Shown here: one piece after another, positions 31,891 through 60,064 of the stretch | Position numbering within the stretch: the first letter of the stretch is position 1 | Layout: every line of letters begins with the position of its first letter | Assembly: GCA_965216315.1 (NCBI GenBank) | Contig: CBDCFN010000015.1 | Span: 160,001 to 224,000 of the forward strand | Direction: 5' to 3' | From: a bacterium | Lineage (GTDB): Bacteria > UBA10199 > 2-02-FULL-50-16 > JAJFLM01 | DNA length: 64,000 bases | Notes under the pieces: generated by a model | What the model saw: the letters and a program-made list of their open reading frames with translations, nothing else | The model's database searches: none | Told to the model about the DNA's origin: nothing | Program-made: the position numbers and the translations under genes

Positions 31891-33309
31891 GTGGCACAGG
31901 CTCAGAAATTGCCCGAGCTCAAACCTCAGGTCCTCATCGTCGATGACGATGAGAGCATGCGGGATCTGCTGACGTCTATCCTCAAGGATGATTACGACTG
32001 TTTTCCGACGGCCAGCATCTCGGCGGCGCGCGACGTGCTGCAACATCAAGAAATTCAGGTCGTCCTCCTCGATGTCCGCCTCAAAGAAGAAAATGGCCTC
32101 GATTTTCTCCCCGAAATTCTGGAACTCAATGACCAAATTGAAGTGATTGTCATCACCGTCATTTCGGATGTTCAGACAGCGGTCAGAGCGATGAAGAGTG
32201 GGGCCTTCGACTACATTAACAAGGAATTCGACTACAATGAATTAACCACTATCATTGAACGGGCCTTAGACAAGCAAAAATCAACCAAAGAAATTCTCTA
32301 TCTCCGTGATGAAGTCCGGCAACAAGAACCGGACGATTTTTATTTTGGCTCCAGCCCCCAAATGCTGAAAGCCCGTGAAATCGCCGATCGGGCGGCGCCA
32401 CTCCCAACGACCGTACTCATCACCGGTGAGACTGGAACCGGCAAGGAACTGATGGCGCGCTACATCCACAATCAGAGTCACTTGGCCGATAAACCCTTCG
32501 TTACTGTCAACCTTTCATCGATTCCATCGGAGCTGATGGAATCGATTCTCTTTGGACACGAAAAGGGTTCTTTCACCGGCGCCCACCAATTGCACTACGG
32601 CAAGTTTGAACTCGCGAATGGAGGCACACTCTTTCTGGATGAAATCGGTGAACTGCGTTTTGAACTCCAATCGAAACTGTTGCGGGTCTTGCAAGAGAGC
32701 GAGATCGAGCGGGTCGGCAGCAATAAAATGATTCCCATCCGGGTTCGTCTCATTGCAGCAACTAATGTGGATTTGCAGGAAAAGGTGCACGAAAGAAGTT
32801 TTCGTGACGACCTCTATTATCGACTGAATGTCGTGCCTATCCATATGCCGCCGTTACGCGAACGTGTTGCCGATATCGGCAGACTCATCGAGATTTTCCT
32901 GCAACGCTACAATCGAAAATTCAACCGACAGGTCAAGGCCTTGCAAGCCGACGTGATCGAAACGATCTCTAGCTATGATTGGCCGGGAAACATCCGTGAG
33001 CTGGAGAACCTCGTCGAACGGCTGGTCGCTATCTCCAATAAGGAAACCGTCGGTTTTGCCGATGTTCCCATCGAATACCAGCTCTGCAAGGTAGAAAACT
33101 CCGAGACCAAGGAAGGTGAAGAATTGCTCCAGAAAAGCCTTGACGCCTTTGAGCGAAGTTTCTTACTCCGAATACTAGAAGAGGAGTCATGGAACCAGAG
33201 CCAAGCCGCCAAGCGTCTGGGCATTCACCGCAAGACTCTTGAATATAAAATTAAGCGTCTCGAGTTGGGGGACATCATTCAAAACGAACGTACTCGTACT
33301 CACAATTAA
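31891..33309 (+). CDS. Sigma-54-dependent response regulator (NtrC family)
   Basis: REC domain (VDDD, LLDV), GETGTGKE, GSFTGA, LFLDEIG, WPGNIRELEN and a Fis HTH. Confidence 0.96.
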   Translation: MAQAQKLPELKPQVLIVDDDESMRDLLTSILKDDYDCFPTASISAARDVLQHQEIQVVLLDVRLKEENGLDFLPEILELNDQIEVIVITVISDVQTAVRAMKSGAFDYINKEFDYNELTTIIERALDKQKSTKEILYLRDEVRQQEPDDFYFGSSPQMLKAREIADRAAPLPTTVLITGETGTGKELMARYIHNQSHLADKPFVTVNLSSIPSELMESILFGHEKGSFTGAHQLHYGKFELANGGTLFLDEIGELRFELQSKLLRVLQESEIERVGSNKMIPIRVRLIAATNVDLQEKVHERSFRDDLYYRLNVVPIHMPPLRERVADIGRLIEIFLQRYNRKFNRQVKALQADVIETISSYDWPGNIRELENLVERLVAISNKETVGFADVPIEYQLCKVENSETKEGEELLQKSLDAFERSFLLRILEEESWNQSQAAKRLGIHRKTLEYKIKRLELGDIIQNERTRTHN

Positions 33310-33314: not shown

Positions 33315-35327
33315 ATGACAGCAAAGTTTATCCGCAACAGTAGCATCATCTATCTGATGCTCACAGCGGTTCCAAATCTCTACAGCGCCGAGGACGCAAC
33401 CACCGAGTTAACTCAGGTCGTTGTCACAGCGGACAAGCGTGAACAGGAACTCGGCGACACGCCGGCGTCCGTCACGATTATTTCCCGCGATGACATTGAG
33501 AGCCAAGCGGCTGACACGGTGCCTGAAGTCCTGCGCCATGTCGCCGGCGTCGATGTCGTCTCCATCGGAGCACCGGGTGACGATCTGGACATCCGCATGC
33601 GGGGTTCTGATCGAGATGAAGTGTTAATCATGATTGACGGCGTCGCCATCAACAACATCCGCGAGCATCGGGCCTTATTCTTAGGATCGATTCCTTTAGA
33701 TAATGTCGAGCGCATCGAAGTTGTCCGCGGATCCCAAAGCATACTCTACGGATCCGACGCTATCGGTGGTGTCATTAATATTATTACACGCAAGGGGACC
33801 GAAGAGCCTCAATACTTCGTGGGCTTTGAAGCGGGGACACTCCAGCGCTTTAAAGAAACGGCGGGACTCTCCGGGCATCCCGGCAAAAACCGCTATAGCC
33901 TAACTATCTCCCGCACCGACCAAAGAGGGCGCTTTGATCGCGATCGATTCGGTGAAATCGCCGCCTCAGCTAATTTTGGTCGTCAGCTCACTCCAGAAGT
34001 TGATCTTGAGGTGGGCGTCAACTACCTGCATACGAATCAAGACCTTTTTTATGAATTTCTAACCGGTTTTGACCCAGCGACAGGAAGTGTTCAGGTACGC
34101 ATTGATCCAGACCGTAATCGCGATCTCACCCGCGATCTCATCACGGGACGCCTCGCTTTGGAAGCCTACCCGCTACCCTGGTGGCAACTGCAATTTCACT
34201 ATGGTTTGTTCGTCGACAAGGACAGCGTCAGCAACCCCACAACCGGCGACACCGCGCCGACGGGCTTTGCGGTCGGGACGCAGGACTTTTCGGGCACGGG
34301 CTATTCCAATACGATCGACCTCCGCAATTTCTTTACACTCTATGAGTCCAGCCCAATCACCGCCGAACTCCTCGTCGGTTTTGAGTTTCAGGATGAACGT
34401 GTCAGTTTCACCGATCCGCCCCTCACTTTTCCAGGACCTGGTCAAGAAGGTGACCGTCAAAACATCGCGCCCTATGCCCAAATAAGTTTTCGCCTCTTAG
34501 ATGAAACTCTGTTCATCACCGGTGGCGCCCGTTTTGACCGGAATACCACCTTCGGACATGAACTAAGCCCCCGCGCTTCGATCCTCTACAAACTAGAAAA
34601 GACAGGGACTCGTTTTCGGGCGAGTTACTCCGAGGGGTTTCATGCCCCAACGATACTCGAGTTCTTCACCCAGACCTTATTGCGCGATTTAGGAGACCCT
34701 CAATTCCAAGCAATTCGTCTCCAAGAAGAACTCTCGCAGAGTTATGAGGTCGGCGTCGAGCAAGAGCTCTGGGATTGGGGCCAGATTTTCGCAACCTTCT
34801 TTTACGTTGATTATGATCGGCTCTTTGATGAATTGCAGTTTATTCAAGACGCCTTTGCAACCGGCGTCGAAACCGGATTTTCCATCCAACCCTGGGACTT
34901 TTTAGCTTTCGGCGGCAATTACACGCTACTCCATGCCCGCGATGAGACCAATAGCCGCCGCCTCCCCAATCGCCCACGGCACCATTTCAACACTTTTGTG
35001 CAAGGAACTCCGATTAGCGATCTGTCTCTCCGCCTTGATCTTAACTTCGTTAGCAGCCGGCGCGTGCCCGACACGATCAGCACTGCGGCAGGAGACCTCC
35101 CCTTTGTCTTCATCGACCAGAACGGCAACGCGACCAGCGGCACGGTAGGGAGCTACGTCAAACTCAACTTCGCCGCCGCCTATACCTTTCTCAAGGACTA
35201 CGGCCCTTTAAATAACTTAAGGACTTATTTACGCATCGATAATCTCCTGGATCGCAACTACCAAGAAAAATTCGGTTTCCCGGCGCCGGGCATCACCGTT
35301 CGCGGTGGGGCGACGGCGACATTTTAG
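33315..35327 (+). CDS. TonB-dependent receptor
   Basis: VVVTA TonB box, plug (IDGV, IEVVRGSQSILYGSDAIGGVINIIT), NLLDRNY and terminal Phe. Confidence 0.95.
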   Translation: MTAKFIRNSSIIYLMLTAVPNLYSAEDATTELTQVVVTADKREQELGDTPASVTIISRDDIESQAADTVPEVLRHVAGVDVVSIGAPGDDLDIRMRGSDRDEVLIMIDGVAINNIREHRALFLGSIPLDNVERIEVVRGSQSILYGSDAIGGVINIITRKGTEEPQYFVGFEAGTLQRFKETAGLSGHPGKNRYSLTISRTDQRGRFDRDRFGEIAASANFGRQLTPEVDLEVGVNYLHTNQDLFYEFLTGFDPATGSVQVRIDPDRNRDLTRDLITGRLALEAYPLPWWQLQFHYGLFVDKDSVSNPTTGDTAPTGFAVGTQDFSGTGYSNTIDLRNFFTLYESSPITAELLVGFEFQDERVSFTDPPLTFPGPGQEGDRQNIAPYAQISFRLLDETLFITGGARFDRNTTFGHELSPRASILYKLEKTGTRFRASYSEGFHAPTILEFFTQTLLRDLGDPQFQAIRLQEELSQSYEVGVEQELWDWGQIFATFFYVDYDRLFDELQFIQDAFATGVETGFSIQPWDFLAFGGNYTLLHARDETNSRRLPNRPRHHFNTFVQGTPISDLSLRLDLNFVSSRRVPDTISTAAGDLPFVFIDQNGNATSGTVGSYVKLNFAAAYTFLKDYGPLNNLRTYLRIDNLLDRNYQEKFGFPAPGITVRGGATATF

Positions 35328-35401
35328 CGCAAGCTGGCACGCAGATTGAGCCAACAACACGCTGTCTGGACCCCCCAAGACGACGTTTAAGCCCCCCAAC
35401 A

Positions 35402-35441
35402 CGGATAAATTTTATTGAAATTATGCCTAAAAATTTATCCA
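35402..35441. promoter_or_regulatory. Candidate upstream activator sequence (paired boxes)
   Basis: GGATAAATTTT...AAAATTTATCC inverted repeat about 150 bp upstream of the sigma-54 promoter at 35585. Confidence 0.5.
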
Positions 35442-35584
35442 GTTTGCCGACAAAATACAGCGGCCTTGATCCCATTTCCCCGTAATTCTTCCGCCCCAAA
35501 GTCGTTAAATTTACACTATAATTTAGCAGGTTAGGCATCGCCCCCCTGAGCCGCTCTTATCCACATGGTGCAATTTTTCACCAG

Positions 35585-35600
35585 TGGCCCCGCGATTGCA
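35585..35600 (+). promoter_or_regulatory. Sigma-54 promoter of the radical SAM-peptide operon
   Basis: TGGCCC-CGCGA-TTGCA. Confidence 0.7.
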
Positions 35601-35649
35601 TCTATCGACAGCAGCAATTCACGAGTCACCAATCCGGGGGGAGAACGTG

Positions 35650-37041
35650 ATGAAGGGTTCAAGGTTTAATGTCCTGACCCGTGCTCAGGATGACCCGACT
35701 ACCTACTTGCTGTATAATACGCTTCACGATCATCGAATCCTCTTTGATGACCCAGAGTTAAATCCTCGTCGGCTCTTAGCCAAACTCAAAAAAAACGAGC
35801 CCCTCAACCCTAAAGAAACGGAAACAGCGGAAGTCCTTTATGAGATGGGCGTGTTAATCGACGATGACACTGATGAGAATAAGATTTTTAAAGAATGGTA
35901 CCTGGAAAAAATCCAAGAGCGCACGGACTACATGCAAATCACGATCCTACCCACCATGAAATGCAACTTGGCCTGCGATTACTGTTTTGAAAATGATGTC
36001 CGTGAATATGAACGACTAACGCCGGAACGCACCGAACAACTAATTCGCTTTCTCAAAGCACGCGTCAAAACCGTGCGCCCCAAAACTTTTCATATCACTT
36101 TTTTCGGAGGAGAGCCGCTAACCCATCCCGAAGCCGTAAAAGATATTTCCCGACAAATGTGGGAGTACTGTGAGAATTTTCCCGACGTCACAATGGAAAT
36201 CGGCATGATTACCAATGGGGTTTTCTTAACTCCGGAGTTTGTCGATGCGTTGCTGCCATACGGATTTGAATGGGTCAAGATCACTTTTGATGGAGATCGC
36301 GACGAACACGACAAAAAGCGCATCTGGCACAATGGGAGGGGAACTTTCGACACGATTTACGATAATCTTTCCCGGATCGCTGGTAAACTCAAGATAGCCA
36401 TCGGAGGCAATTTCGATCAGGCCAACTACGAGAGTATGTTCAGCCTGATCGAACGCCTCCGTAGCAGCCCTTTCGCCGACGACATATTTATTGCTCGTTT
36501 TAAGCCTATCATCGACGTTCAGCCGGACATCGCACTCAAGCGCGAAGGCGGACGCCTGACCGACGCTTGCAATGTTTGCACTTATAACAACGAGCAAATC
36601 AACCAGATGCAACGACTCCGGCAAAAAACTTTTGAAAGCGGCCTACCGATTGAAGACCGTCCGGTCGTGGGCCCCTGTGAATTTCATCAACACCACTCGA
36701 TGACAATTGGCCCCAATGGCCTGATCTACAAGTGTCCGGCTTTCGTGGGGCTACACAATCTAGCCGCCGGCGATATCTATCACGACGAATTCAACCAGTA
36801 CGGTGAATGGCAGCACACTTTTACTAAATGGGACTCAGAATGTGAAGAGTGCGCCTATTTACCCAACTGCGCCGGCGGCTGTCGCTTCAATGCAGTTAAC
36901 ACAACGGGAAGCTTAGAACCTAAATCTTGTGAACTCAATCTGCTTGTAAAATCCACCGAGAATTTCATGCAGAGGGAAATCGTAAAAATGCGTGCCGACG
37001 GCGAGAAAGAGGAGATCCTCCCCGTTTACTCGGCAGCTTAA
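35650..37041 (+). CDS. Radical SAM/SPASM peptide maturase
   Basis: CNLACDYC, FFGGEP and SPASM (CEF..YKC..CEECAYLPNCAGGC..C), plus an ~85-aa N-terminal possible peptide-recognition domain. GGGGGAG SD precedes GTG 35647/ATG 35650. Confidence 0.93.
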   Translation: MKGSRFNVLTRAQDDPTTYLLYNTLHDHRILFDDPELNPRRLLAKLKKNEPLNPKETETAEVLYEMGVLIDDDTDENKIFKEWYLEKIQERTDYMQITILPTMKCNLACDYCFENDVREYERLTPERTEQLIRFLKARVKTVRPKTFHITFFGGEPLTHPEAVKDISRQMWEYCENFPDVTMEIGMITNGVFLTPEFVDALLPYGFEWVKITFDGDRDEHDKKRIWHNGRGTFDTIYDNLSRIAGKLKIAIGGNFDQANYESMFSLIERLRSSPFADDIFIARFKPIIDVQPDIALKREGGRLTDACNVCTYNNEQINQMQRLRQKTFESGLPIEDRPVVGPCEFHQHHSMTIGPNGLIYKCPAFVGLHNLAAGDIYHDEFNQYGEWQHTFTKWDSECEECAYLPNCAGGCRFNAVNTTGSLEPKSCELNLLVKSTENFMQREIVKMRADGEKEEILPVYSAA

Positions 37042-37073
37042 CATTTCGACTAACGACTAATCCGGAGGTTTAA

Positions 37074-37142
37074 ATGAAAGTATCCAAAGGCAAAAAAGTA
37101 ACAGATCCCAAACCAGCAGTATGCGTACCTGTCGCATTCTGA
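37074..37142 (+). CDS. Candidate RiPP precursor peptide MKVSKGKKVTDPKPAVCVPVAF
   Basis: 22 codons with GGAGG SD, 32 bp after the maturase stop and followed by a strong terminator; below the ORF-track cutoff. Confidence 0.8.
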   Translation: MKVSKGKKVTDPKPAVCVPVAF

Positions 37143-37154
37143 CGCACGAATAGA

Positions 37155-37205
37155 ACAAGAAAAAAGGGTCGCTCTGCCTGGCAGAGTAGATCCTTTTTTT
37201 CTTGT
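37155..37205 (+). terminator. Intrinsic (probably bidirectional) terminator after the precursor
   Basis: ACAAGAAAAAAGGGTC-GCTCTGC-ctg-GCAGAGT-AGATCCTTTTTTTCTTGT. Confidence 0.8.
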
Positions 37206-37240
37206 CGCGCTTTACATTAAGTGGCATGGTCGCCTTCTTC

Positions 37241-38827
37241 ATGCTGGCCCGGCCCGTCGCATTTGTTTCCATTATTCTTGTTTTCCTAGCGTTTATTTCC
37301 TGCACCCAACAAGCCACTCAACCTCAGCAAGGTGGGATTCTGCGCTTAGGCAGCTTTCATAAACCGACCGAGATCAATCCGCTCACCACTGACTCGAGCA
37401 TCTCGGCCAACCTATTAGACCTCATCTTTGACAGCCTGGTTCGATTGGATAGTGAACAAAACATTGAGGCCGAACTCGCTAAACGCTGGGAGGTCTCTCC
37501 GGATGGTCTCCAGTGGACCTTTTACTTGCGCCCGGACATCGTGTTTCATGATGGCACTGCACTAACAGCCGAGGATGTTAAATTTACCTATGATCATATT
37601 ATTAACAGTCATCGGGGTGCCTATACCGTCTATTTTCAGTTTGTTAAAGAGGTCCGTGTCCTCGATACGCATACGGTGCAAATCAGTTTATCTCAATTCG
37701 ACAACGTGTTGTGGACCGGATTGGCCTATGTGGGCATTGCCCCCAAACATTTACTCGCCAAACCCGCAGCAAGCGCCCAATTCAACCAACATCCTATCGG
37801 TAGCGGCGCCTACCGTTTTGTCCGCCGCACGCCTCAAGAAATTATTCTAGAGGCAAACCAAAACTATTACCAACAGCGCCCTTATCTCGATCGCATCGCC
37901 ATCGTCATCTTGCCAAGTCAGGGCGCCGTCTTGAATCATCTGATTGCCGAGCAACTTGATATGGCGTTTCTATTGAATCCAGAAGACTATGGCGCCCTCA
38001 ACCAAATCCCTTCCATTAAAATCTATAATAATTGGTATCCTTTTTTGTACCTCCTCACCCTCGACAACCGCAATCCACTCTTTCGCTCTACAACCAACCG
38101 TCGGCTGCTCAATCAGGCCATCAACAAAGAACAAATTATTCAACGCCTCCTCAAGGACCAAGGGGAGATTGCCGCCAGTACTGTCCCGAGTAAAAGCCCT
38201 TTTTATAATGCCGCAGTGACCCCTTACCCTCATGACCCAAAAGGAGTCGCAAAAATGTTGGCCAAAAGCGGCTGGAAAACCCACAACAAGGACCACATCC
38301 TGCGTAAAAACAATCGTTATTTTGAATTTACCGCTTATGCGATGGAAGGGCATAGTATGGAAGAAAGAATCTTACTTAATGTTCAAGAACAATTACTCCT
38401 CCTCGGCATCAAAATGAACATTACCGTTCTCCCCTTCGATCAATATATAAAGAAAATATTTCGCGAACAGCATTTCGATGCAAATTTGATTTTTTTCGTT
38501 TTTCGAGATTTTTACGGAAACAATTCTAATATATGGGATTCCCAGCAGATCAAAAAGGGCATCAACTATTTATCGTATGCAAACCCTGAAATTGACCGCC
38601 TCTTAAAAACAATTCGCTTAGCGCGTTCCAAGCCCGATCAAATCGCCGCACTCAAAGAATTCCAAAGAATCATCCACGACGACCCTCCCGGTATTTTTCT
38701 CTTTTGGCGCAACATGCCCATTGCCGTTCACAAACGCTTCCGCGGCATTCCTACAGAGCAGATGAAGTCTCTGCGCGATCTTGTGCATGTTTGGGTGCCG
38801 AAGGAGGAGCAGATTTCTAAAAATTGA
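37241..38827 (+). CDS. Orphan peptide-binding lipoprotein (ABC family 5 SBP)
   Basis: Lipobox FISC, INPL, LRPDIVFHDGTALTAEDVKFT and PIGSGAY; no adjacent permeases; start uncertain (37202/37226/37241). Confidence 0.88.
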   Translation: MLARPVAFVSIILVFLAFISCTQQATQPQQGGILRLGSFHKPTEINPLTTDSSISANLLDLIFDSLVRLDSEQNIEAELAKRWEVSPDGLQWTFYLRPDIVFHDGTALTAEDVKFTYDHIINSHRGAYTVYFQFVKEVRVLDTHTVQISLSQFDNVLWTGLAYVGIAPKHLLAKPAASAQFNQHPIGSGAYRFVRRTPQEIILEANQNYYQQRPYLDRIAIVILPSQGAVLNHLIAEQLDMAFLLNPEDYGALNQIPSIKIYNNWYPFLYLLTLDNRNPLFRSTTNRRLLNQAINKEQIIQRLLKDQGEIAASTVPSKSPFYNAAVTPYPHDPKGVAKMLAKSGWKTHNKDHILRKNNRYFEFTAYAMEGHSMEERILLNVQEQLLLLGIKMNITVLPFDQYIKKIFREQHFDANLIFFVFRDFYGNNSNIWDSQQIKKGINYLSYANPEIDRLLKTIRLARSKPDQIAALKEFQRIIHDDPPGIFLFWRNMPIAVHKRFRGIPTEQMKSLRDLVHVWVPKEEQISKN

Positions 38828-38871
38828 ATCCCCCTTAATCCCCCTTTACAAAGGGAGGCTAGTAGGGATTT
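38827..38871. repeat. REP-like repeat family B
   Basis: AATCCCCCTTAATCCCCCTTTACAAAGGGAGGCTAGTAGGGATTT at the edge of an AT-rich segment. Confidence 0.75.
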
Positions 38872-38955
38872 AGGCGAAAATAAATAGTTTCCAGATAGTC
38901 GAATCTTGCCTAGCAATATTTGAAGTAGCTTTTTTCATGATTTGTAAAGTTGGAG

Positions 38956-39156
38956 CTACTCTTTGTTACCTTCATGGGAGAACGTTGCCAAACTAGTATC
39001 ATTACTATCGTCTGTCGATGAAATGCTTATATCAGCACTAGATAATACAGGCGTTAAAACTGCGCCTTCTTTAACCTTACTTGCAATTTTCCGTACAGCT
39101 TCAATTAAATCTTCAGACCAACCAAGCTTTTCTAATTGTTTATCAAGCTCCATCAT
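38956..39156 (-). CDS. Small hypothetical protein
   Basis: 66-aa ORF 15 bp downstream of the protease-like gene, with the same low GC. Confidence 0.5.
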   Translation of the reverse strand: MMELDKQLEKLGWSEDLIEAVRKIASKVKEGAVLTPVLSSADISISSTDDSNDTSLATFSHEGNKE

Positions 39157-39171
39157 TTTATTGTATAATGC

Positions 39172-40209
39172 CTATATCTGATTTGCACTACGTATTAAAG
39201 AATATTTTTGAGACAGAAACATCTTTACTATCATAGATTTATCAAAAGTATAATAAATTAATGCCCAGAACCTACGAATAGCACGCTGTAGCCCTGGTAC
39301 AGACTCTATCTCGTGGATTTTAAGCTTCAACTCCTCACTAATAGCAACATCTCTTGTAATTCCATGCGCGTGTGATTTCCAATATTCGTTACTGCATAAT
39401 TTATCAGCGATCCATTTTGCACGAGAATACTTCTCTTCTTCCGTGACAGTGTTATTTGTACTAGAATGCTTAGTCCAGTTCTTGAATTTATATTGATTCA
39501 AAAAAGAAGTTGCCATTTTTATCGAATATTCAGATAGGCTTATAGCATCACCTATCTGTCGTTGATCCATTGTATCTACCAGCCTGATGTAGTGCCATGG
39601 AGGGTTGTTGCCTTTCTTCAGTGCTTCCTCGCCATCCTGTTTAATTTTATTAAGTAGTACTAATATAGATTGTGCAGGCACAAGATTGCCATCTTTAGAC
39701 CTTACTTGCGGGTCTATCGGACCTATATACGCTCGCTTATCCATCCAAATATCATCCCCAGATAATGCCCATAACGTGCCCGCACTCATGCATGCATGAG
39801 GAAGAATGAAATTAACGATTTCAAAACGTGGCCTAAGGCAGTTAACAAATTGTGAAACTTGCTGCCCCGAACCACCACCTGTAGCTAGTAAGATGTCAAG
39901 ATCGGTTTGCTGATCATCTATACTACTAACTAATTCATTGAAAGGAAGATCATCGCTAAGATCAATAGACGTATTCGGCAATGGTTTTATGACGTTCGCG
40001 AGATAGCACACAGCTGGGCGCTCTCGAATTTTTTCAACTTCCGCAAGAGCTTTCCTTATATCAGGGATAACGTTTCCACTGCGGGGGACGAATGACACAA
40101 TACTTCCATATTCATTTCCATCCTCCATCTTATCCAATAATGAATCAACCTCCTTTGTTTCTTGCGTTTTCTGACGCCCCCGGGCAATTTGCCGGCTTTT
40201 CCTTCCCAT
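39172..40209 (-). CDS. ClpP/crotonase-superfamily serine protease (SDH_sah-like)
   Basis: LATGGGS, MSAGTLWAL, GPIDPQ and SHAHGI; AT-rich. Confidence 0.8.
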   Translation of the reverse strand: MGRKSRQIARGRQKTQETKEVDSLLDKMEDGNEYGSIVSFVPRSGNVIPDIRKALAEVEKIRERPAVCYLANVIKPLPNTSIDLSDDLPFNELVSSIDDQQTDLDILLATGGGSGQQVSQFVNCLRPRFEIVNFILPHACMSAGTLWALSGDDIWMDKRAYIGPIDPQVRSKDGNLVPAQSILVLLNKIKQDGEEALKKGNNPPWHYIRLVDTMDQRQIGDAISLSEYSIKMATSFLNQYKFKNWTKHSSTNNTVTEEEKYSRAKWIADKLCSNEYWKSHAHGITRDVAISEELKLKIHEIESVPGLQRAIRRFWALIYYTFDKSMIVKMFLSQKYSLIRSANQI

Positions 40210-40277
40210 TTTAAGTATCTTTCATAGCTTTCGTCTCTTCATTAATAGTGAAAAATAGAATTTCTCTGGCAATTGCT

Positions 40278-41570
40278 CTACTTGATCAAACTACAGCCAC
40301 CTGCTGAACTCGAACTCCCACTGCTGATATCCTCTGCAATTTCCCCATCATATTCATCTGCGCCCATATCCGGCACATCCCAAATGACTCGATCATCTCC
40401 ATCAAAATCAGTCTCGAGCATTTGAGGGGCATCATCGTAACCAGTATTTATACAAGGAGATGAGGCCTGAAGATGAAAATCACCATTTTCCGCATCGACA
40501 AAGAGTGGGTCGGCACTGATGCTATCAAATTCTTCTTTCTGAACACTGCATTCAAAACAACTAGCTTTCAATTTTCCATAATTATTATTAAATAAGCGAA
40601 TCAATCCCCCTTTGCCATCATTATTAAAATCAATACCAGAATCAAAATGAATGTCATTGATAGCTTTCCCTAATGGAGTCAAGTTATTCACAATAATGTT
40701 ACTATATAATTCTGCCTGAGCCTCATCTGTTCGTAGCCGCAACAATAAACCACTCCATGTGCCTTCTTCATCTAACGAGAAATTATTTGAAATAGTATTG
40801 TTCACAAGAATTGTATCAGCGCCATCAACCGTATCTGTCACATCTGTTATGGTAAGTGCACCACTACTATTTCTCTCAAAAATATTGCCACTTACAACAA
40901 CATATTCTGCTTCAATATTTGCTCCTCCGCCGGTACCAACATTTAATGAATTATTACTAAATAGATTATTTTCCAGTACGACTGAATCTGCTGTTCCATT
41001 TGATATATTTAGGCCTCCATTAGTATCACTTTCATTATAAATAAAGCGACTATTTCTAACTAAAATAGTGGATGAGCTATTGGAAATTATTAGACCACCG
41101 GCATTAGTATCAAATGAACTAGATTCAATCTTTATATTGACTTTAAATGGCTCAATATTGACTCCACTGAGGTTAGAAGGTTTTCCGTTAGAAAAACTTA
41201 TACCTTCAATAGAAATATTACCCCGGATATTAATTAAATCTAAAATTCCTAACCCACCGCTCATATTTGAACCGTCAATAATTGTGTTGTCTATCCCTTT
41301 TCCGATTAGACTCAGAGAAAAAGACTCTGACTCTAATGGATCGTAAATAAAATTACCTCCCGAGGAATTCTTATTATAAGTCCCAGATTCTAAATAAAGA
41401 TTGTCGTCTTGATTATTTATGCCTGCTAGATTTAGAGCGGCTTGTAAATCACATATCAAATCTGAACAATCGCTATCTTGATCTAAGCTAACAGAAATAT
41501 CAGCAGCATTAGTTTCAACTGACATTAAAAAAATAACGGCGTAGATTACTGCCCATGCTATTTTGTTCAT
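40278..41570 (-). CDS. Secreted right-handed beta-helix protein (choice-of-anchor Q-like) with C-terminal GGCSLIK
   Basis: Signal peptide, Asn/Gly-rich repeats and DPLFVD..DFHLQASSPCI..G..DMGADE. Confidence 0.8.
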   Translation of the reverse strand: MNKIAWAVIYAVIFLMSVETNAADISVSLDQDSDCSDLICDLQAALNLAGINNQDDNLYLESGTYNKNSSGGNFIYDPLESESFSLSLIGKGIDNTIIDGSNMSGGLGILDLINIRGNISIEGISFSNGKPSNLSGVNIEPFKVNIKIESSSFDTNAGGLIISNSSSTILVRNSRFIYNESDTNGGLNISNGTADSVVLENNLFSNNSLNVGTGGGANIEAEYVVVSGNIFERNSSGALTITDVTDTVDGADTILVNNTISNNFSLDEEGTWSGLLLRLRTDEAQAELYSNIIVNNLTPLGKAINDIHFDSGIDFNNDGKGGLIRLFNNNYGKLKASCFECSVQKEEFDSISADPLFVDAENGDFHLQASSPCINTGYDDAPQMLETDFDGDDRVIWDVPDMGADEYDGEIAEDISSGSSSSAGGCSLIK

Positions 41571-41590
41571 TAGATTCCCAGTTTCTATTT

Positions 41591-42691
41591 TTATCGCGTT
41601 CCTATGGCTATTATTGTAGCTTGATTAGGTAATTTGCCATCTGATCCATCACTACAGCGACTGTCTGCACATATGTTCAATCTGAAAGTTCCATCGATGA
41701 AAACAGTAACCCTTTCCGTGCCACCCCCGTCGCCTTCATATTGACTCAAAGAAGGTACAAATGTCACAGCTGATCCACAGTCTGAAACACCGAATCCACT
41801 AGGTATATATATTAAAGAGCAAACGTTTGTTCCGTGCACAACATTTTGGCTAACTCTGAATCCAATCCCCGAATACCCAGCCCCTTTAATCGATCCATCC
41901 GAATTAAGTGCTGAATTTGAATCATTAAGATCAACTCCATCTACAAAACCAACATTTGTGATGTTATTGCCTCCCATGCTTAGATTGCCACTCATAGTGT
42001 CGCCACCAACGTTGACATAGGCTGAATCATGATTATGACCTGCGGTTGCAGCTCCTACCTGGGCTGCGGTGACGTTGTGCGGATTGGACGTATCACTTGT
42101 ATGACTACTTAGTTCTGTATCCATAGTAACTTCAGGAGGTAATTGAGTCACATCCAGCACACCCGTCAGTTGAGAAATACTAATATTCTCCAAATGCTCG
42201 ACCGTAATCGCGCCATTCTCAATACTAGTCGCGGTAATAGCCCCCTCTGCCACGGTTAATGCCTGTTGGGCATAAAAGGCATATGGCACCGAGGTCAGCT
42301 CTAATTGATCTAACGTAGTGACATTCTTAACCGTGACTTCGAGAAAAAGCGGGTTCGCCGGATTAAAATCAGTAAATATCAGCCCCCCCGTTGGAACGGC
42401 AGGATTGGAATTCGGGACAATACCGGAACCCAGGAGCACATTGATCATTCCATCAAAAATTTGCACCGCGGGCTGTTCTTCGGCATAGAGTTCCGTTCCC
42501 TGATCATCGAGGATACGAAACAGAATATCAGCACTATCATCTTCGATGACATTCCCGCCATCATCGAAAATAACCGACTGAAAGGTAATCACATTAGGGA
42601 CCGACTGGGCCTGCCCTATAACTGACACCAGCATCACTGCTAATATCAGAATAGATCCAAATAATTTTCTCTGTATTTTATACAGGCCCAT
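41591..42691 (-). CDS. Secreted tail-fibre-like adhesin
   Basis: Signal peptide, VPNVITFQ, LTSVPYAFYA, HTSDTSNPHNVTAAQVGA, HNHD and GDTMSGNLSM fibre-like motifs. Confidence 0.7.
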   Translation of the reverse strand: MGLYKIQRKLFGSILILAVMLVSVIGQAQSVPNVITFQSVIFDDGGNVIEDDSADILFRILDDQGTELYAEEQPAVQIFDGMINVLLGSGIVPNSNPAVPTGGLIFTDFNPANPLFLEVTVKNVTTLDQLELTSVPYAFYAQQALTVAEGAITATSIENGAITVEHLENISISQLTGVLDVTQLPPEVTMDTELSSHTSDTSNPHNVTAAQVGAATAGHNHDSAYVNVGGDTMSGNLSMGGNNITNVGFVDGVDLNDSNSALNSDGSIKGAGYSGIGFRVSQNVVHGTNVCSLIYIPSGFGVSDCGSAVTFVPSLSQYEGDGGGTERVTVFIDGTFRLNICADSRCSDGSDGKLPNQATIIAIGTR

Positions 42692-42715
42692 ACGTTACCT
42701 CGCTTTCATTCATAA

Positions 42716-43150
42716 TTACCTTATCTTAATTTCGACCCGCCGATTCCGTGATCGGCCGCTTTCATGGCTATTACTCGCCACTGGCTTTTCTTCCCCAAAT
42801 GACAAAACAATCAGCTGTTCCGGTGCAACCCCCGCTAAAACTAAAAGTTCTTTAATAGTACGCGCACGTTTATCGCCTAAACGTAAATTGTATGCCGAAT
42901 CTCCAATCGCATCGGCATGACCCTCAAGTTGGGCAATCCAACTCGGATGCCGACGAAGATAATCTACTGTCGGACTCAGTTTGCGACGCTCTTCTGATTG
43001 GAGATTCGATTGGTCGGAAGCAAAATACAAAGATGTGAGATCACGTGGTTTTTGGACAATGGGTTCGGGAGCCTTGCGATGAGATGAAGCACAAGCAGAC
43101 ATCATCATGATCAATCCCAATCCAAAGAGTGAAAGGGCCTTAGCGTTCAT
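42716..43150 (-). CDS. OmpA/Pal-like peptidoglycan-binding lipoprotein
   Basis: Lipobox MSAC, EGHAD..G..YNLRLG.KRA, SFGEEKP and NRRVEI. Confidence 0.9.
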   Translation of the reverse strand: MNAKALSLFGLGLIMMMSACASSHRKAPEPIVQKPRDLTSLYFASDQSNLQSEERRKLSPTVDYLRRHPSWIAQLEGHADAIGDSAYNLRLGDKRARTIKELLVLAGVAPEQLIVLSFGEEKPVASNSHESGRSRNRRVEIKIR

Positions 43151-44016
43151 TGCACACTCCTTTGCATCACACCCGGGAAATGGGCTAAATCCACATCAAA
43201 GCTATGGACTGGCACACCACCCGCGCTTACATGTGATGCCTCAATCCCCCCAAACGAAACGATCCCGATACCGGGCAAAGAACCCGGAGGGATCAAGCGA
43301 ACACTAACCTGACTTTGTTCGCCGTTATCTAAATCGCGAACCGTAAATGTATGCCGCCCCAGCGCGAGCGTATCTGGCGCCATTGTGAAGGTACCAAGGC
43401 TTATTGACGGTGAAATAACTGAATCTCCCAAGGAAACATCTAAGAGTACGTCGCTACTGCCCTCGGTGGCATCATCGATCTCAAGACGTCCCCCCGGCTC
43501 ACCGACACCGAGTAATTTAAGACGGTTTACGATAACGCGATTACCCGAACGCAAGTTCGTAAATAGTGGGACTGTGTTGAGCGACACAACGATGGGTTCG
43601 GCATTGTCTTTATCAATCGTAACATTCATGATCTGCTTGCGCCGAACCACCATTCCTTCTGAATTGAAGGCCTCGACCAAGAAAGTCCGTGCGGTACCAT
43701 CCGGAAGTTCATTAAGTTCCGTCCCGGTTGAATCAGCATCAAGATTAATGACCACGGGTTCTGCTAAATCCTCACCCGTCACGGTAACGACAAAGCGCAC
43801 GACACGTTGAATTTCGGGTAATTGCTCGACAGATAATCCAGCCGGACTGAGCGCATTTTCAATAATGAGATCGATGTTGACGTTTTCGTGGCGCGTGCAT
43901 GCAGTGCTAAGAAGAAGCAACACAGTCAATAAAATCCCCCTCAATCCCCCTTTGCAAAGGGGGAGGTGCCGGTGGTCCAAAATTACGCCCTTCTCTTTAT
44001 CAACGAAAAATGACAT
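43147..44016 (-). CDS. Hypothetical lipoprotein with Ig-like/beta-rich domains
   Basis: LLTVLLLLSTAC lipobox; start ATG 44016 or TTG 43980 (the ORF-track start at 44136 overlaps the upstream gene). Confidence 0.7.
   Translation of the reverse strand: MSFFVDKEKGVILDHRHLPLCKGGLRGILLTVLLLLSTACTRHENVNIDLIIENALSPAGLSVEQLPEIQRVVRFVVTVTGEDLAEPVVINLDADSTGTELNELPDGTARTFLVEAFNSEGMVVRRKQIMNVTIDKDNAEPIVVSLNTVPLFTNLRSGNRVIVNRLKLLGVGEPGGRLEIDDATEGSSDVLLDVSLGDSVISPSISLGTFTMAPDTLALGRHTFTVRDLDNGEQSQVSVRLIPPGSLPGIGIVSFGGIEASHVSAGGVPVHSFDVDLAHFPGVMQRSVQ
43931..43965. repeat. REP-like repeat family B within a signal-peptide coding region
   Basis: AAAATCCCCCTCAATCCCCCTTTGCAAAGGGGGAG; reads LPLCKGGLRGI on the minus strand. 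Confidence 0.75.
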
Positions 44017-45307: not shown

Positions 45308-45410
45308 TCCCCATCCCTTTCTACCGCACCCGAACTTGCCTAACATTTAATCAGCCCCCAACCCCCTGTAAACGGAAAATATTTATCCAACTCGCCACCC
45401 CAAGTTATAT

Positions 45411-45954: not shown

Positions 45955-46045
45955 AAGGTTCCTCCGATAACAAAGTCTTCATGACGAATAAAGACTGATT
46001 TCTAACCATTGAAATCTACAAACAAAGTTTATCGGGAAGAATTCT

Positions 46046-58315: not shown

Positions 58316-60064
58316 ATGTGGCTGAAGCACATTTCCATCTCCACCCGACTGATTGTCCTCCTCATCTTTGCCGTCCTGCTGCCGCTGCTTATCTTTGGGG
58401 CCCTTGCCGAATGGCAGGTACGCGAAGCCACTGAAATTTCGGTGACGGAAGGCAACGCCCGCGTAGCCAAACGGGCCGCTGAACAGATTCAACAGTATGT
58501 CAGCAGCGCCCTGACCCTGTTGAAGTCAACCGCCGAAAATATTAACAACGCAGACCTGGCCGATTGGCAAAAAGAACGCATTCTCAAGAATTACCGGAAT
58601 CAATTTGACCAGTTCAACGAACTGACCATCTGGGATCTCCAGAAAAAAGCACTGGCGACCAGTCGCCTCGTCGCGGCTCAGCTCAATCAACGCGAACAAA
58701 AGGCCTATACCGCGGCTTTAAGCGGCAAAATGTATTTATCGCCGGAATACATCCGCGAAGATCTATCGCCGGCCATGGTTGTTGCCGTCCCGCTGAAGCG
58801 ACTCACCGAAGTGAATGGAATCCTTATTGCCGAGTTGAATTTGATGCACATGTGGTACCTCGTCGATAGTATTCGCATTGGTAAAAAGGGCGTGCTCCAC
58901 ATCGTTGACGAAGATGGGCGTCTCCTGGCGACGGGAGATGGCGAACGCAAGAAGAGCGTGTTTCAGGGTGGGCATTTTGAGGCCATGGCATTAATGCCGA
59001 AAATACTCGAACCCCATGGAACCCGCTTTACCAATTTTCTTAATACAGAGGTCCTTTCCGTCGGTACCCGGCTCAAAGATCCTTTGCACTGGAGTGTGAT
59101 CGTCGAACAACCGACGCGCGAAGCCTATGCCCTCGCCACTCGCATTGGGTATTATTTGGCTGCTATCACGCTTCTGTTTTTAGTCGTGGCCTTAGGGTTG
59201 GGCTTTTACAGTGGGAAACGTCGTATCATTGATCCTATCCGCGTACTTTCCGCAGCCACGGAAGAACTGGCCCGCGGTAATCTTGACTATCGCGTTGAAC
59301 TGGATACCGGCGATGAGTTTGAGCAATTGGGCCAAGCCTTCAATGACATGGCAGCACGTTTAAAGAACGTTCAAGAAAAACTGATCCAAGAAGAAAAACA
59401 CGCGATGTTCGGTCGCATTGCCTCGGGACTCGCCCATGACCTCAAGCACCCGATCCAGGCAATTGAAACGTCGAGTCGCCTTATTGATAAAAAGTATGAT
59501 GATCCGGAATTCAGGAGCATGTTTCAACGAACCGTCAATCGCGAATTTAAAAAGATCAATAATTTTCTCAATAATCTACACAACCTCACCCACGACATTC
59601 CCTTCCGCCCCGTACCCATAAAAGTAAACTCTCTGCTCGTTGAAACACTCGAGACATTTGAAGCAACGGCAAATGAACGCGATATCGCGATCGACCGTCA
59701 CTGGGAGGATAACGGCCTCCGCATTGAAGCAGACCCGGCCACCCTCAACCGCGCCCTTTCCAATCTCGTGTCCAATGCCATCGAGGCCATCGGGACTCAT
59801 GGAACGTTGACCATTCGAGCGGAAAAAGTGGACGACCATGTTAATGTCACGGTCCAAGACAGCGGCAAAGGGATCGCCGCGGAACGGCTCAAAAGCCTCT
59901 TTGATGATTTCGTCACGACCAAGCGTCGCGGCCTCGGGCTGGGTCTCGCCATCACGAAGAAAATCATTGCTCAGCATCAAGGCCAGCTTTCGGTAAGCAG
60001 TACCGTCGGGGTCGGCACCCGCTTTGTCATTCACATACCGACCCTACCCACGTCAGAAACTTGA
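58316..60064 (+). CDS. Sensor histidine kinase (periplasmic Cache-like, HAMP, HisKA, HATPase)
   Basis: Two TM helices, GDEFEQLGQAFNDM, AHDLKHP, NLVSNA, DSGKGI and GLGLGL. Confidence 0.95.
   Translation: MWLKHISISTRLIVLLIFAVLLPLLIFGALAEWQVREATEISVTEGNARVAKRAAEQIQQYVSSALTLLKSTAENINNADLADWQKERILKNYRNQFDQFNELTIWDLQKKALATSRLVAAQLNQREQKAYTAALSGKMYLSPEYIREDLSPAMVVAVPLKRLTEVNGILIAELNLMHMWYLVDSIRIGKKGVLHIVDEDGRLLATGDGERKKSVFQGGHFEAMALMPKILEPHGTRFTNFLNTEVLSVGTRLKDPLHWSVIVEQPTREAYALATRIGYYLAAITLLFLVVALGLGFYSGKRRIIDPIRVLSAATEELARGNLDYRVELDTGDEFEQLGQAFNDMAARLKNVQEKLIQEEKHAMFGRIASGLAHDLKHPIQAIETSSRLIDKKYDDPEFRSMFQRTVNREFKKINNFLNNLHNLTHDIPFRPVPIKVNSLLVETLETFEATANERDIAIDRHWEDNGLRIEADPATLNRALSNLVSNAIEAIGTHGTLTIRAEKVDDHVNVTVQDSGKGIAAERLKSLFDDFVTTKRRGLGLGLAITKKIIAQHQGQLSVSSTVGVGTRFVIHIPTLPTSET

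What the first reader, a model, noticed from the sequence alone, without database searches (positions are those of the whole stretch)
37063..37142. Unannotated 22-aa precursor peptide MKVSKGKKVTDPKPAVCVPVAF
It has a GGAGG SD, starts 32 bp after the maturase and is followed by a terminator. The organisation is bipartite: a basic leader (MKVSKGKK..PKPA) and a hydrophobic core with one Cys (VCVPVAF). With a single Cys and no Trp/Tyr, a Cys thioether (sacti/ranthi-type) or a Phe-involving crosslink giving a small macrocycle is the inferred product.
Basis: partly seen in the sequence, partly recalled or inferred. Interest (0 to 1): 0.82.

Follow-up and report, generated by a model that had tools for sequence, protein, structure and literature searches.

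The report
Tiny precursor peptide beside radical-SAM enzyme
A real but unannotated 22-residue gene encodes the substrate peptide of the neighbouring iron-sulfur "stapling" enzyme, and it sits in a conserved, undescribed gene set that also holds an outer-membrane importer, a peptide-binding protein, a sensor kinase and a sigma-54 activator.

Summary
ORF 37074-37142 (+) encodes MKVSKGKKVTDPKPAVCVPVAF. It has GGAGG 5 nt upstream, lies 32 nt after the radical SAM/SPASM gene, and is followed by a -27.7 kcal/mol hairpin with a U-run.

It is a real gene. I found maturase orthologues (>=34% identity) in 26 genomes of the same phylum. All 24 whose downstream DNA is present carry a 22-25 aa ORF with an SD, a basic leader (MK[IV]..KKG.K) and one invariant Cys that is always sixth from the C-terminus. 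Synonymous sites are saturated (pS ~0.8) against pN ~0.3.

No curated NCBIfam model covers the maturase or the peptide. The geopeptide model scores best, 249 bits against a cutoff of 400.

The peptide belongs to a conserved cassette: sigma-54 response regulator, TonB-dependent receptor, maturase, peptide, AppA-like binding lipoprotein, dCache histidine kinase. A sigma-54 -24/-12 promoter and a GGATAAA inverted repeat precede the maturase.

In a sister clade in Acidobacteriota, already noted by this scan on other DNA (e1-2562118), Cys+5 is Asp/Glu in 21 of 23 peptides. Here Cys+5 is the last residue.

My inference, untested, is a Cys17 thioether to the carbon next to the C-terminal carboxylate, giving a six-residue ring that the cassette senses.

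The parts
31891..33309 (+). Sigma-54-dependent response regulator (receiver + AAA+ sigma-54 interaction domain + Fis-type HTH).
   Evidence: Pfam Response_reg, Sigma54_activat and HTH_8. An orthologue lies next to the maturase in 12 of 13 larger loci of the same phylum and in 20 of 23 Acidobacteriota-type loci.
33315..35327 (+). TonB-dependent outer-membrane receptor, 670 aa. It starts 5 nt after the regulator gene.
   Evidence: Pfam Plug 100 bits. NCBIfam TonB-receptor models all score below their cutoffs. An orthologue is present in 12 of 13 larger loci. None was found in the 23 Acidobacteriota-type loci within 3.5 kb.
35403..35440 (.). Perfect inverted repeat GGATAAATTTT-N16-AAAATTTATCC, a candidate enhancer (UAS) for the sigma-54 activator.
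   Evidence: GGATAAA or TTTATCC lies 100-420 nt upstream of the maturase in 13 of 14 loci, against 0.10 expected per locus. Binding by the regulator is inferred.
35585..35600 (+). Sigma-54 type -24/-12 promoter element TGGCCCCGCGATTGCA, 50 nt before the maturase ATG.
   Evidence: An element matching at least 9 of 11 consensus bases lies within 230 nt upstream of the maturase in 13 of 14 loci (at least 8 of 11 in 14 of 14), against 0.018 expected per locus.
35650..37041 (+). Radical SAM/SPASM peptide maturase, 463 aa from ATG 35650. The longer GTG 35584 reading overlaps the promoter and is unlikely.
   Evidence: Pfam Radical_SAM, and the NCBIfam SPASM domain above its cutoff. The public 463-aa form is P0001. 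Invariant residues are CX3CX2C plus 8 further Cys. The AF2 model has pLDDT 86 and an N-terminal three-strand/three-helix module. The best structural matches are CteB, TigE and SuiB.
37064..37068 (+). Shine-Dalgarno GGAGG of the peptide gene.
   Evidence: A purine-rich SD precedes every relative's peptide ORF.
37074..37142 (+). Precursor peptide gene, 22 aa: leader MKVSKGKKVTDPKPAV, core CVPVAF (Cys17 ... Phe22-COOH).
   Evidence: Conserved in 24 of 24 assessable genomes, with Cys always sixth from the end. Under purifying selection. The motif occurs once in the genome.
37155..37205 (+). Intrinsic-terminator-like hairpin flanked by an A-run and a U-run.
   Evidence: -27.7 kcal/mol, z -4.99.
37202..38827 (+). 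Family-5 solute-binding protein, probably a lipoprotein (..LAFISC..). It is of the oligopeptide-binding type, and no permease gene lies beside it.
   Evidence: Pfam SBP_bac_5 248 bits. The best solved relative is B. subtilis AppA, 1xoc, E 6e-63. It lies directly downstream of the peptide in 12 of 13 larger loci. A Cys near the N-terminus is the majority residue in alignment A2.
58316..60064 (+). Sensor histidine kinase (TM, dCache, TM, HAMP, HisKA, HATPase). It is the orthologue of the kinase that follows the binding protein directly in relatives; here it is separated by about 19.5 kb.
   Evidence: 50% identity to the L020 kinase, E 6e-179. Pfam. The kinase comes right after the binding protein in 10 of 13 larger loci and lies inside the cassette in 5 of 5 Acidobacteriota genomes tested.

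Best explanation
The 22-codon ORF is the precursor (substrate) gene of the radical SAM/SPASM maturase that precedes it.

Shown:
- The gene pair is conserved.
- It is preceded by a sigma-54 promoter and an inverted repeat.
- It is embedded in a conserved gene set: sigma-54 response regulator, TonB-dependent receptor, oligopeptide-type binding lipoprotein and dCache histidine kinase.

Inferred:
1. The basic N-terminal leader (MK[IV]..KKG.K) docks on the enzyme's N-terminal recognition module.
2. The enzyme abstracts a hydrogen atom and joins the sulfur of the single Cys (Cys17) to a carbon of the peptide, with loss of 2 Da, closing a small ring. I put the odds of a thioether at about 0.6.
3. The acceptor is the last residue (Phe22), at the carbon next to the free C-terminal carboxylate, giving a six-residue ring. 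The reason is that Cys+5 is the terminus in every member of this clade and Asp/Glu in the sister clade. I put the odds at about 0.3-0.35.
4. The product leaves the cell by an unknown route and re-enters the periplasm through the TonB-dependent receptor. It is bound by the AppA-like lipoprotein and sensed by the dCache kinase. The kinase activates the sigma-54 regulator, which switches on the maturase-peptide operon. That would be a self-inducing peptide signal loop, with odds of about 0.5.
For: - **Gene reality.** Searches give the anatomy. Orthologous maturases occur in 26 of 93 genomes searched in the phylum. The peptide ORF is present in 24 of the 24 with downstream DNA; G051 and G075 are cut by contig ends, and G051 still shows the first 14 codons. 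One genome has three tandem copies (L041).
- **Coding constraint.** Pooled pS is 0.78 and 0.80 against pN 0.28 and 0.33. The close pair L002/L004 has 12 synonymous and 3 non-synonymous changes, L012/L013 has 3 and 0, and the tandem copies have 6 synonymous and 0-1 non-synonymous.
- **Enzyme.** It has Radical_SAM plus SPASM domains, invariant CX3CX2C plus 8 more Cys, and a fold like CteB, TigE and SuiB over the full length, N-terminal module included. The nearest curated families are all Cys-peptide maturases: geopeptide, CefB, TIGR04463 and PapB.
- **Acceptor idea.** Cys is sixth from the end in 24 of 24 peptides while every other core position varies. In 23 Acidobacteriota-type peptides with the same leader, Cys+5 is Asp or Glu in 21. 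PapB links Cys to the carbon alpha to a carboxylate, and in vitro it also uses the C-terminal carboxylate; an amidated terminus is not processed (PMC12373016: abstract, part 1 of 2 of section 5, and the Discussion read).
- **Regulation and sensing.** A sigma-54 element is present in 13 of 14 loci against 0.018 expected per locus, and the GGATAAA motif in 13 of 14 against 0.10. The repeat in this window is a perfect inverted repeat. Regulator, receptor and binding protein are each in 12 of 13 larger loci, and the kinase in 10 of 13. The kinase lies inside the cassette in 5 of 5 Acidobacteriota genomes. The binding protein is closest to the oligopeptide binder AppA, and no permease gene is in the cassette.
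Against: - No chemistry was measured, so the thioether, its acceptor and the ring are inference.
- PapB did not process peptides ending in L-Ala, Lys, Phe, Asn, Ile or Gln. An enzyme working on an L-configured C-terminal Phe would therefore need a different active-site geometry.
- The maturase fails the cutoff of every curated family: PapB 128 against 340, geopeptide 249 against 400.
- Two of 23 sister-clade peptides lack Asp/Glu at Cys+5 (L074, L082).
- No exporter or leader protease is conserved in the cassette.
- One locus (L023) lacks the regulator and receptor nearby. In this genome the kinase lies 19.5 kb away.
- No RNA data exist, so transcription and translation are not shown.
- The genomes compared are relatives, so the counts are not independent events.
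Confidence: 0.6

Rival explanations
1. The ring is real, but the acceptor is not the terminal residue, or the chemistry is not a thioether. Options are a sactionine-type link to the alpha-carbon of an internal core residue, a link to a beta or gamma carbon, or another radical reaction on Cys or on the C-terminus such as oxidative decarboxylation. In that case the fixed distance to the C-terminus only reflects how the enzyme measures its substrate.
For: The closest solved fold, CteB, makes a Cys-to-alpha-carbon link at an internal residue (entry title). PapB rejects L-configured C-terminal residues other than Gly. SPASM enzymes of similar fold carry out C-C and other chemistry, for example SuiB and anSME.
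Against: No internal core position is conserved in identity across the 24 peptides. The sister clade places Asp/Glu exactly where this clade places its terminus, in 21 of 23 peptides.
Confidence: 0.3
2. The modified peptide is a scavenging molecule (a metallophore or nutrient carrier). It would be secreted, loaded and taken back up through the TonB-dependent receptor and the family-5 binding protein, as in methanobactin operons. The kinase and regulator would report nutrient status rather than the peptide itself.
For: The pairing of a TonB-dependent receptor with a family-5 binding protein resembles MbnT/MbnE. MbnE (5icq) and nickel/metallophore binders appear among the weaker matches of the binding protein (NCBIfam NikA/CntA hits below cutoff).
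Against: The core has a single Cys and no His- or Cys-rich motif. If the Cys is consumed in a thioether, no obvious ligand atom remains. No inner-membrane permease or ATPase and no exporter lie in the cassette. The sister cassette has no TonB receptor within 3.5 kb in 23 of 23 loci. The best solved relative of the binding protein is an oligopeptide binder.
Confidence: 0.12
3. The product is an antimicrobial peptide (bacteriocin) aimed at competitors, and the neighbouring receptor and sensor genes are unrelated or serve immunity.
For: Many radical-SAM thioether peptides are antimicrobial. This rests on general knowledge and on review listings, seen only as titles and abstracts.
Against: No immunity gene, ABC exporter or leader peptidase is conserved. 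The conserved partners are sensing and uptake genes under the same sigma-54 logic in two phyla.
Confidence: 0.08
4. The ORF is a chance open frame in a 3' untranslated region and is not translated.
For: It is only 22 codons long. It is not called in the 15-billion-protein collection, and no expression data exist.
Against: It is conserved with an SD in 24 of 24 genomes and shows purifying selection. One genome has tandem triplication. The motif occurs once in the genome.
Confidence: 0.03

Closest known systems
PapB / PapA (freyrasin) ranthipeptide system
   Same: A radical SAM/SPASM enzyme with an N-terminal leader-recognition module. It forms a Cys thioether to the carbon alpha to a carboxylate located C-terminal to the Cys. 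In vitro PapB can use the peptide's own C-terminal carboxylate to close a ring, and it needs that carboxylate to be free (PMC12373016).
   Different: The PapB model NF047865 scores 128 bits against a cutoff of 340. PapA has six CX3D repeats; this peptide has one Cys and no acidic residue in the core. The spacing is Cys+5, not Cys+4. PapB does not accept L-Phe and five other L-residues at the terminus. PapB is not described with a receptor, binder, kinase and sigma-54 cassette in what I read.
CteB / SCIFF thioether maturase (PDB 5wgg, 5why)
   Same: It is the best match by sequence among solved structures (E 2e-14) and by fold (Foldseek E 1e-18, TM 0.63-0.69, full length). It forms a thioether on a small Cys peptide.
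   Different: Identity is only 18%. The SCIFF model TIGR03974 scores 90 bits against a cutoff of 425. From recall, SCIFF precursors carry six Cys in about 45 residues.
Geopeptide system (NCBIfam TIGR04280 maturase, TIGR04229 peptide)
   Same: It is the highest-scoring curated maturase model (249 bits). The substrate is a small Cys-containing peptide beside a radical SAM/SPASM enzyme.
   Different: The score is below the cutoff of 400 here and in all 93 genomes of the phylum. The peptide does not match TIGR04229. The Geobacteraceae loci carry an upstream peptide with an acidic leader and a CCGG motif. No paper on geopeptide was found.
Acidobacteriota cassette noted earlier by this scan (e1-2562118)
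   Same: It is the sister clade of the maturase (31-34% identity). It shares the same leader (MKI.V[IV]KK), a sigma-54 regulator, a family-5 binding protein and a dCache kinase.
   Different: The peptides are 23-33 aa long, with Asp/Glu at Cys+5 and a polar tail. No TonB-dependent receptor lies within 3.5 kb.
Methanobactin operons (MbnA with MbnT TonB receptor and MbnE family-5 binding protein)
   Same: A ribosomal peptide product is encoded beside a TonB-dependent receptor and a family-5 periplasmic binder. MbnE 5icq is a weak match. The paper PMC3621798 was seen only in the listing.
   Different: The maturation enzymes are different, the sensor system is different, and this peptide has no copper-binding motif.
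Three-component sensors made of a periplasmic binding protein, a histidine kinase and a sigma-54 regulator (for example LuxP/LuxQ...LuxO, AioX/AioS/AioR; recalled, not tested)
   Same: A periplasmic binding protein without its own permease is encoded next to a membrane kinase and a sigma-54 activator.
   Different: In those systems the ligand is a small molecule or an oxyanion. Here the candidate ligand is a ribosomal peptide encoded in the same cassette, and an outer-membrane receptor is part of the set.

Membership tests
Geopeptide radical SAM maturase (TIGR04280) | Whole-protein score at or above the curated cutoff of 400 bits. | tested here: not met
   249.4 bits. 0 of 93 genomes of the phylum exceed the cutoff.
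Geopeptide (TIGR04229) | The precursor matches the 22-position peptide model (cutoff 30 bits). | tested here: not met
   No hit at E up to 0.1 or up to 10 for the window peptide and 6 relatives. A Geobacteraceae peptide scores 14 bits.
PapB family ranthipeptide maturase (NF047865) | Score at or above 340 bits. | tested here: not met
   128.1 bits.
CefB Cys-every-fifth maturase (NF038107) and TIGR04463 | Score at or above 600 and 525 bits respectively. | tested here: not met
   211.6 and 187.1 bits.
Radical SAM/SPASM RiPP maturases (broad class) | CX3CX2C radical SAM motif and core domain. | tested here: met
   Pfam PF04055 66.8 bits against 29.5. C105, C109 and C112 of P0001 are invariant in 20 sequences.
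Radical SAM/SPASM RiPP maturases (broad class) | C-terminal SPASM domain with the Cys ligands for auxiliary clusters. | tested here: met
   TIGR04085 52.2 bits against 27. Eight further invariant Cys.
Radical SAM/SPASM RiPP maturases (broad class) | N-terminal peptide-recognition (RRE-like) module. | tested here: inconclusive
   In the AF2 model residues 1-90 form three strands plus three helices at pLDDT above 90. Full-length Foldseek alignments to CteB and SuiB cover them. No dedicated RRE profile was run.
RiPP precursor peptide | Encoded beside the maturase, with a conserved leader, a variable core and a conserved modified residue. | tested here: met
   24 of 24 genomes. The leader is shared with the Acidobacteriota clade.
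Sactipeptide / ranthipeptide (thioether RiPPs) | A thioether between Cys sulfur and an alpha (sacti) or beta/gamma (ranthi) carbon. | not testable with these tools
   This needs mass spectrometry and NMR of the product.
Sigma-54-dependent operon | A -24 GG / -12 GC element upstream, and a cognate enhancer-binding protein. | tested here: met
   TGGCCCCGCGATTGCA at 35585-35600. Found in 13 of 14 loci against 0.018 expected. The regulator gene is at 31891-33309. Activation itself was not tested.

The most novel reading that the evidence does not exclude
This is a natural family of radical SAM enzymes that staples an internal Cys to the alpha-carbon of the peptide's own L-configured C-terminal residue, using the free alpha-carboxylate as the handle that Asp/Glu side chains provide in the sister clade. 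So far this reaction has only been seen as an in-vitro side activity of PapB on Gly, D- and beta-residues. The resulting six-residue ring would serve as a self-made signal in a Gram-negative type of cell: admitted by a dedicated TonB-dependent receptor, caught by a peptide-binding lipoprotein, and read by a dCache kinase and a sigma-54 activator that turn on its own synthesis.
Probability: 0.22. Interest if true: 0.85.

Novelty: new variant of a known kind. Interest (0 to 1): 0.64.

Why it matters
Gene callers miss genes this short: none of the five 22-25 aa peptides I looked up is in a 15-billion-protein collection. Yet this one defines a peptide family spread over 26 of the 93 genomes searched in an uncultured phylum, with a sister family in soil Acidobacteriota. 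Three things follow if the reading is right.

- **Chemistry.** The invariant 'Cys, five residues, end' rule gives a sharp and cheap hypothesis: a carboxylate-guided C-terminal thioether on a natural L-residue. That would extend what is known from PapB engineering.
- **Signalling.** Peptide signalling with a dedicated outer-membrane receptor and a sigma-54 loop is not a described mode of communication in bacteria with an outer membrane.
- **Testability.** The cassette offers a compact set of testable parts: promoter, inverted repeat, binder and kinase.

Tried and rejected
- **Single-protein scan of genome contigs.** 488 pattern hits and no relative. It was replaced by whole-genome searches and an alignment-based scan.
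- **NCBIfam scans of the peptides.** No family was found.
- **Rfam on 35200-37400 at E up to 1.** No RNA family.
- **Literature searches.** 'geopeptide', TIGR04280 and TIGR04229 gave no relevant paper. Radical SAM + RiPP + TonB-dependent + sigma-54, radical SAM + precursor peptide + histidine kinase + substrate-binding protein + sigma54 and ranthipeptide + quorum sensing gave nothing that describes this cassette. These searches cover only the held library.
- **Sequencing runs.** No RNA holder is listed, so expression could not be examined and read laying was not used.
- **Complex prediction, binding protein (35-541) with the kinase's periplasmic domain (34-275).** No verdict: scores 0.05 and 0.27 against a mark of 0.32.
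- **Maturase-peptide complex.** Not sent, because the peptide is shorter than the 30 residues the tool asks for.
- **Second precursor copy in this genome.** None found. One loose hit on C16 lacks the leader motif and is taken as chance.
- **Maturase hits of 27% identity or less in the phylum (G023, G063, G074, second hit in G067; L016-L018, L143-L146).** They have no such peptide and were treated as other families.
- **Element TGGCACGCAGATTGA at 35335-35349.** It has GA at -12 and was not taken as a promoter.

Full report
**1. The observation**

The window holds an ATG-started 22-codon ORF at 37074-37142 on the + strand. It reads MKVSKGKKVTDPKPAVCVPVAF.
- GGAGG lies at 37064-37068, five bases before the ATG.
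- The preceding 463-aa gene ends with TAA at 37039-37041, so 32 bases separate the two genes.
- A hairpin follows. The simple scan marks a stem at 37171-37187 with a T-run. Folding 37140-37205 gives a long stem flanked by an A-run and a U-run, -27.7 kcal/mol, z = -4.99, with 0 of 200 shuffles as stable.
- No Rfam family matches 35200-37400.

**2. Is it a gene?**

I searched whole genomes of the same phylum with the maturase protein (61 genomes) and with the best-scoring curated model TIGR04280 (93 genomes).
- Twenty-six genomes hold an orthologue that is 34-100% identical to the window's enzyme. Four further hits are 27% identical or less and belong to other families (G023, G063, G074 and a second gene in G067).
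- I listed all short ORFs downstream, without preselecting by motif.
- In 24 of the 24 genomes where the downstream DNA is present there is a 22-25 aa ORF within about 30-300 nt, preceded by a purine-rich SD. The other two, G051 and G075, end at a contig edge; G051 still shows the first 14 codons, MTIKKGKKISNPKP.
- All 24 peptides start with a basic leader (MK[IV]xKGxK, or MK[IV]K[VA]VKKGxK) and contain one Cys.
- That Cys is always the sixth residue from the C-terminus.
- The other five core positions vary. The last residue is F in 12, Y in 6, W in 1, M in 2, H in 2 and L in 1.
- One genome carries three tandem copies (L041).

A Nei-Gojobori count shows saturated synonymous change against restrained non-synonymous change:

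| Comparison | Synonymous | Non-synonymous |
|---|---|---|
| Pooled, 22-aa group | pS 0.78 | pN 0.28 |
| Pooled, 25-aa group | pS 0.80 | pN 0.33 |
| L002 vs L004 | 12 | 3 |
| L012 vs L013 | 3 | 0 |
| L041 tandem copies | 6 | 0-1 |

In the window's own 2.96-Mb genome, a strict family pattern occurs once in six frames, at this spot. The exact peptide and four relatives of 22-25 aa are absent from the 15-billion-protein collection. A 31-aa Acidobacteriota relative is present but unnamed. I conclude the gene is real and unannotated. Translation itself is not shown, because no RNA run is listed.

**3. The enzyme**

The upstream gene has a Radical_SAM domain (Pfam 66.8 bits) and a SPASM domain (TIGR04085, 52 bits against a cutoff of 27). 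The public form of the protein starts at ATG 35650 (P0001, 463 aa). The longer GTG reading would run over the promoter described below.
- In an alignment of 20 homologues, the CX3CX2C motif and eight further Cys are invariant.
- An AlphaFold2 model (pLDDT 86) has an N-terminal three-strand/three-helix module, a partial TIM barrel and a C-terminal Cys-rich part.
- Its best solved look-alikes over the full length are CteB (thioether, SCIFF), TigE and SuiB.
- The best curated families are all maturases of small Cys peptides, and every one is below its cutoff:

| NCBIfam model | Score (bits) | Cutoff (bits) |
|---|---|---|
| Geopeptide maturase TIGR04280 | 249 | 400 |
| CefB NF038107 | 212 | 600 |
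| TIGR04463 | 187 | 525 |
| PapB NF047865 | 128 | 340 |

- None of the 93 genomes reaches the geopeptide cutoff.
- The peptide matches no NCBIfam model.
- Geobacteraceae loci show what geopeptide-like precursors look like: they lie upstream, have an acidic leader and carry a CCGG motif. The match to TIGR04229 is weak, 14 bits.

This is therefore an uncurated family within a known enzyme class.

**4. The neighbourhood**

I fetched 13 larger loci from relatives and compared them with the window.

| Gene | Present in |
|---|---|
| Sigma-54 response regulator | 12 of 13 |
| TonB-dependent receptor | 12 of 13 |
| Family-5 binding protein directly after the peptide | 12 of 13 (the remaining locus ends at a contig edge) |
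| ~577-aa dCache-HAMP histidine kinase directly after the binding protein | 10 of 13 |

- L023 lacks both the regulator and the receptor nearby.
- In the window the orthologous kinase is at 58316-60064 (50% identity to the L020 kinase; Pfam). About 19.5 kb of other genes sit between the binding protein and the kinase in this genome.
- No permease, ATPase, exporter or leader peptidase is conserved in the set.
- The binding protein's best solved relative is the oligopeptide binder AppA of B. subtilis (E 6e-63). Its N-terminus looks like a lipoprotein signal, and a Cys there is the majority residue among orthologues.

**5. Regulation**

The 322-nt spacer between the receptor gene and the maturase holds TGGCCCCGCGATTGCA at 35585-35600, a sigma-54 -24/-12 element 50 nt before the ATG.
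- An element with at least 9 of 11 consensus bases lies within 230 nt upstream of the maturase in 13 of 14 loci, and with at least 8 of 11 in 14 of 14. The background rate in the same loci predicts 0.018 per locus.
- About 150-180 nt further upstream is a perfect inverted repeat, GGATAAATTTT-N16-AAAATTTATCC, at 35403-35440.
- GGATAAA or its complement occurs 100-420 nt upstream in 13 of 14 loci, against 0.10 expected.

This is the layout of an enhancer-dependent sigma-54 promoter, and the obvious activator is the regulator encoded in the cassette. The link is inferred from position and conservation and has not been tested. The genomes are relatives, so the counts overstate independence.

**6. 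The sister clade and the acceptor idea**

An alignment-based scan of one genome per species found the next relatives (31-34% identity) in Acidobacteriota, mostly Vicinamibacterales.
- Of 23 such loci whose context I printed, 20 have the sigma-54 regulator upstream, 17 have the family-5 binding protein downstream, and none has a TonB receptor within 3.5 kb.
- In 5 of 5 genomes tested, the best kinase match lies inside the locus.
- Their peptides share the leader (MKI[TQK]V[IV]KKA...) but are 23-33 aa long: one Cys, four residues, then Asp or Glu, then a polar tail. Examples are CPWIQDEITEKKN and CPWAIDDGGAPQK.
- Asp or Glu sits at Cys+5 in 21 of 23 intact peptides. The misses are L074 (CPWMIA...) and L082 (CAADD-end). 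L075 has in-frame stops and was not counted.
I reached it independently.

Anchored on the Cys, position +5 is an acidic side chain in one clade and the C-terminal residue in the other. In both clades a carboxylate sits at the same distance from the Cys.

PapB, the studied ranthipeptide enzyme, joins Cys to the carbon alpha to the acceptor's carboxylate. A 2025 paper shows that it can also use the peptide's own C-terminal carboxylate, attaching sulfur to the terminal alpha-carbon. A C-terminal amide is inert (PMC12373016; I read the abstract, part 1 of 2 of section 5, and the Discussion). The same paper reports that PapB works on terminal Gly, D- and beta-residues but not on L-Ala, Lys, Phe, Asn, Ile or Gln. 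In the parts I read, the paper names no natural peptide with such a link.

My working model is that this enzyme family makes that link naturally: Cys17 sulfur to the alpha-carbon of Phe22, giving a six-residue ring and -2 Da. I give a thioether about 0.6 and this particular acceptor about 0.3-0.35. An internal acceptor or other chemistry is the main rival.

**7. Function**

The conserved partners are a gate through the outer membrane, a periplasmic peptide binder without a permease, a membrane kinase with a periplasmic dCache domain, and a sigma-54 activator whose likely target is the peptide operon itself. The simplest reading is a self-induced peptide signal loop, at about 0.5.
- A scavenging (metallophore-like) role is possible because the pairing of a TonB receptor with a family-5 binder recalls methanobactin operons. 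The core offers no metal ligands, however, and the sister cassette works without the receptor.
- A bacteriocin role lacks immunity and export genes.
- A structure-based test of contact between the binder and the kinase gave no verdict and counts neither way.
- How the peptide leaves the cell, and whether the leader is removed, are open questions.

**8. Verdict**

The Phe-specific variant is not supported.

The family is a new variant within radical SAM/SPASM thioether-type peptides. It is not covered by curated models, and it was not found in the papers searched (held library only). Two features are worth a bench test: the invariant 'Cys plus five residues, then end' rule, and the receptor-binder-kinase-sigma-54 cassette.

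Noticed in passing
window 38828-58315: About 19.5 kb lie between the binding-protein gene and its partner kinase, which are adjacent in 10 of 13 relatives. The stretch holds an SDH-type serine protease (39172-40209, -), a DUF5123 protein, an OmpA-domain protein, a PEGA-domain protein, a 1469-aa cyclase/AAA_16/TPR protein (46312-50721, +) and a 1530-aa Ig-repeat protein (51559-56151, -). It looks like an insertion into the cassette. I did not study its ends.
   Followed up: partly
L041 / L062 (same place; public record labelled 'Myxococcota bacterium'), 50-370 nt after the maturase: There are three tandem precursor copies, MKI[E/Q]KGQKVTNPNPVRCPGTLF, each with its own SD. They differ almost only at synonymous sites.
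   Followed up: partly
L008-L011 (and L002), between the maturase stop and the peptide SD: A strong GC-rich hairpin (for example GGGGATGGGAAG...CTTCCCATCCC) sits between the enzyme gene and the peptide gene in several relatives but not in the window. It may be a processing or attenuation site that sets the enzyme-to-peptide ratio.
   Followed up: no
L075 and L136 (Acidobacteriota loci): In L075 the peptide frame is interrupted by two in-frame stops. In L136 the peptide frame has no nearby stop and runs on towards the next gene.
   Followed up: no
L088 (Nitrospiraceae) and L089 / L094 (Geobacteraceae): More distant maturases (27-28% identity) have their candidate peptides upstream: MKKGIVVLKKGVAKKAVLATTCCRIGAANVKL with a similar basic leader, and acidic-leader CCGG peptides. 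In L088 and L089 a TonB-receptor fragment also lies upstream. The pairing of receptor and peptide may therefore be wider than this family.
   Followed up: no
window 23736-26212 (-): A second family-5 binding protein (24662-26212) has a DppB-like permease gene (23736-24665) beside it. It is a conventional peptide or nickel importer that could serve as an inner-membrane route. No link to the cassette was tested.
   Followed up: no
window 35335-35349: A second sigma-54-like element, TGGCACGCAGATTGA, lies directly after the receptor's stop codon. It has GA instead of GC at -12.
   Followed up: no
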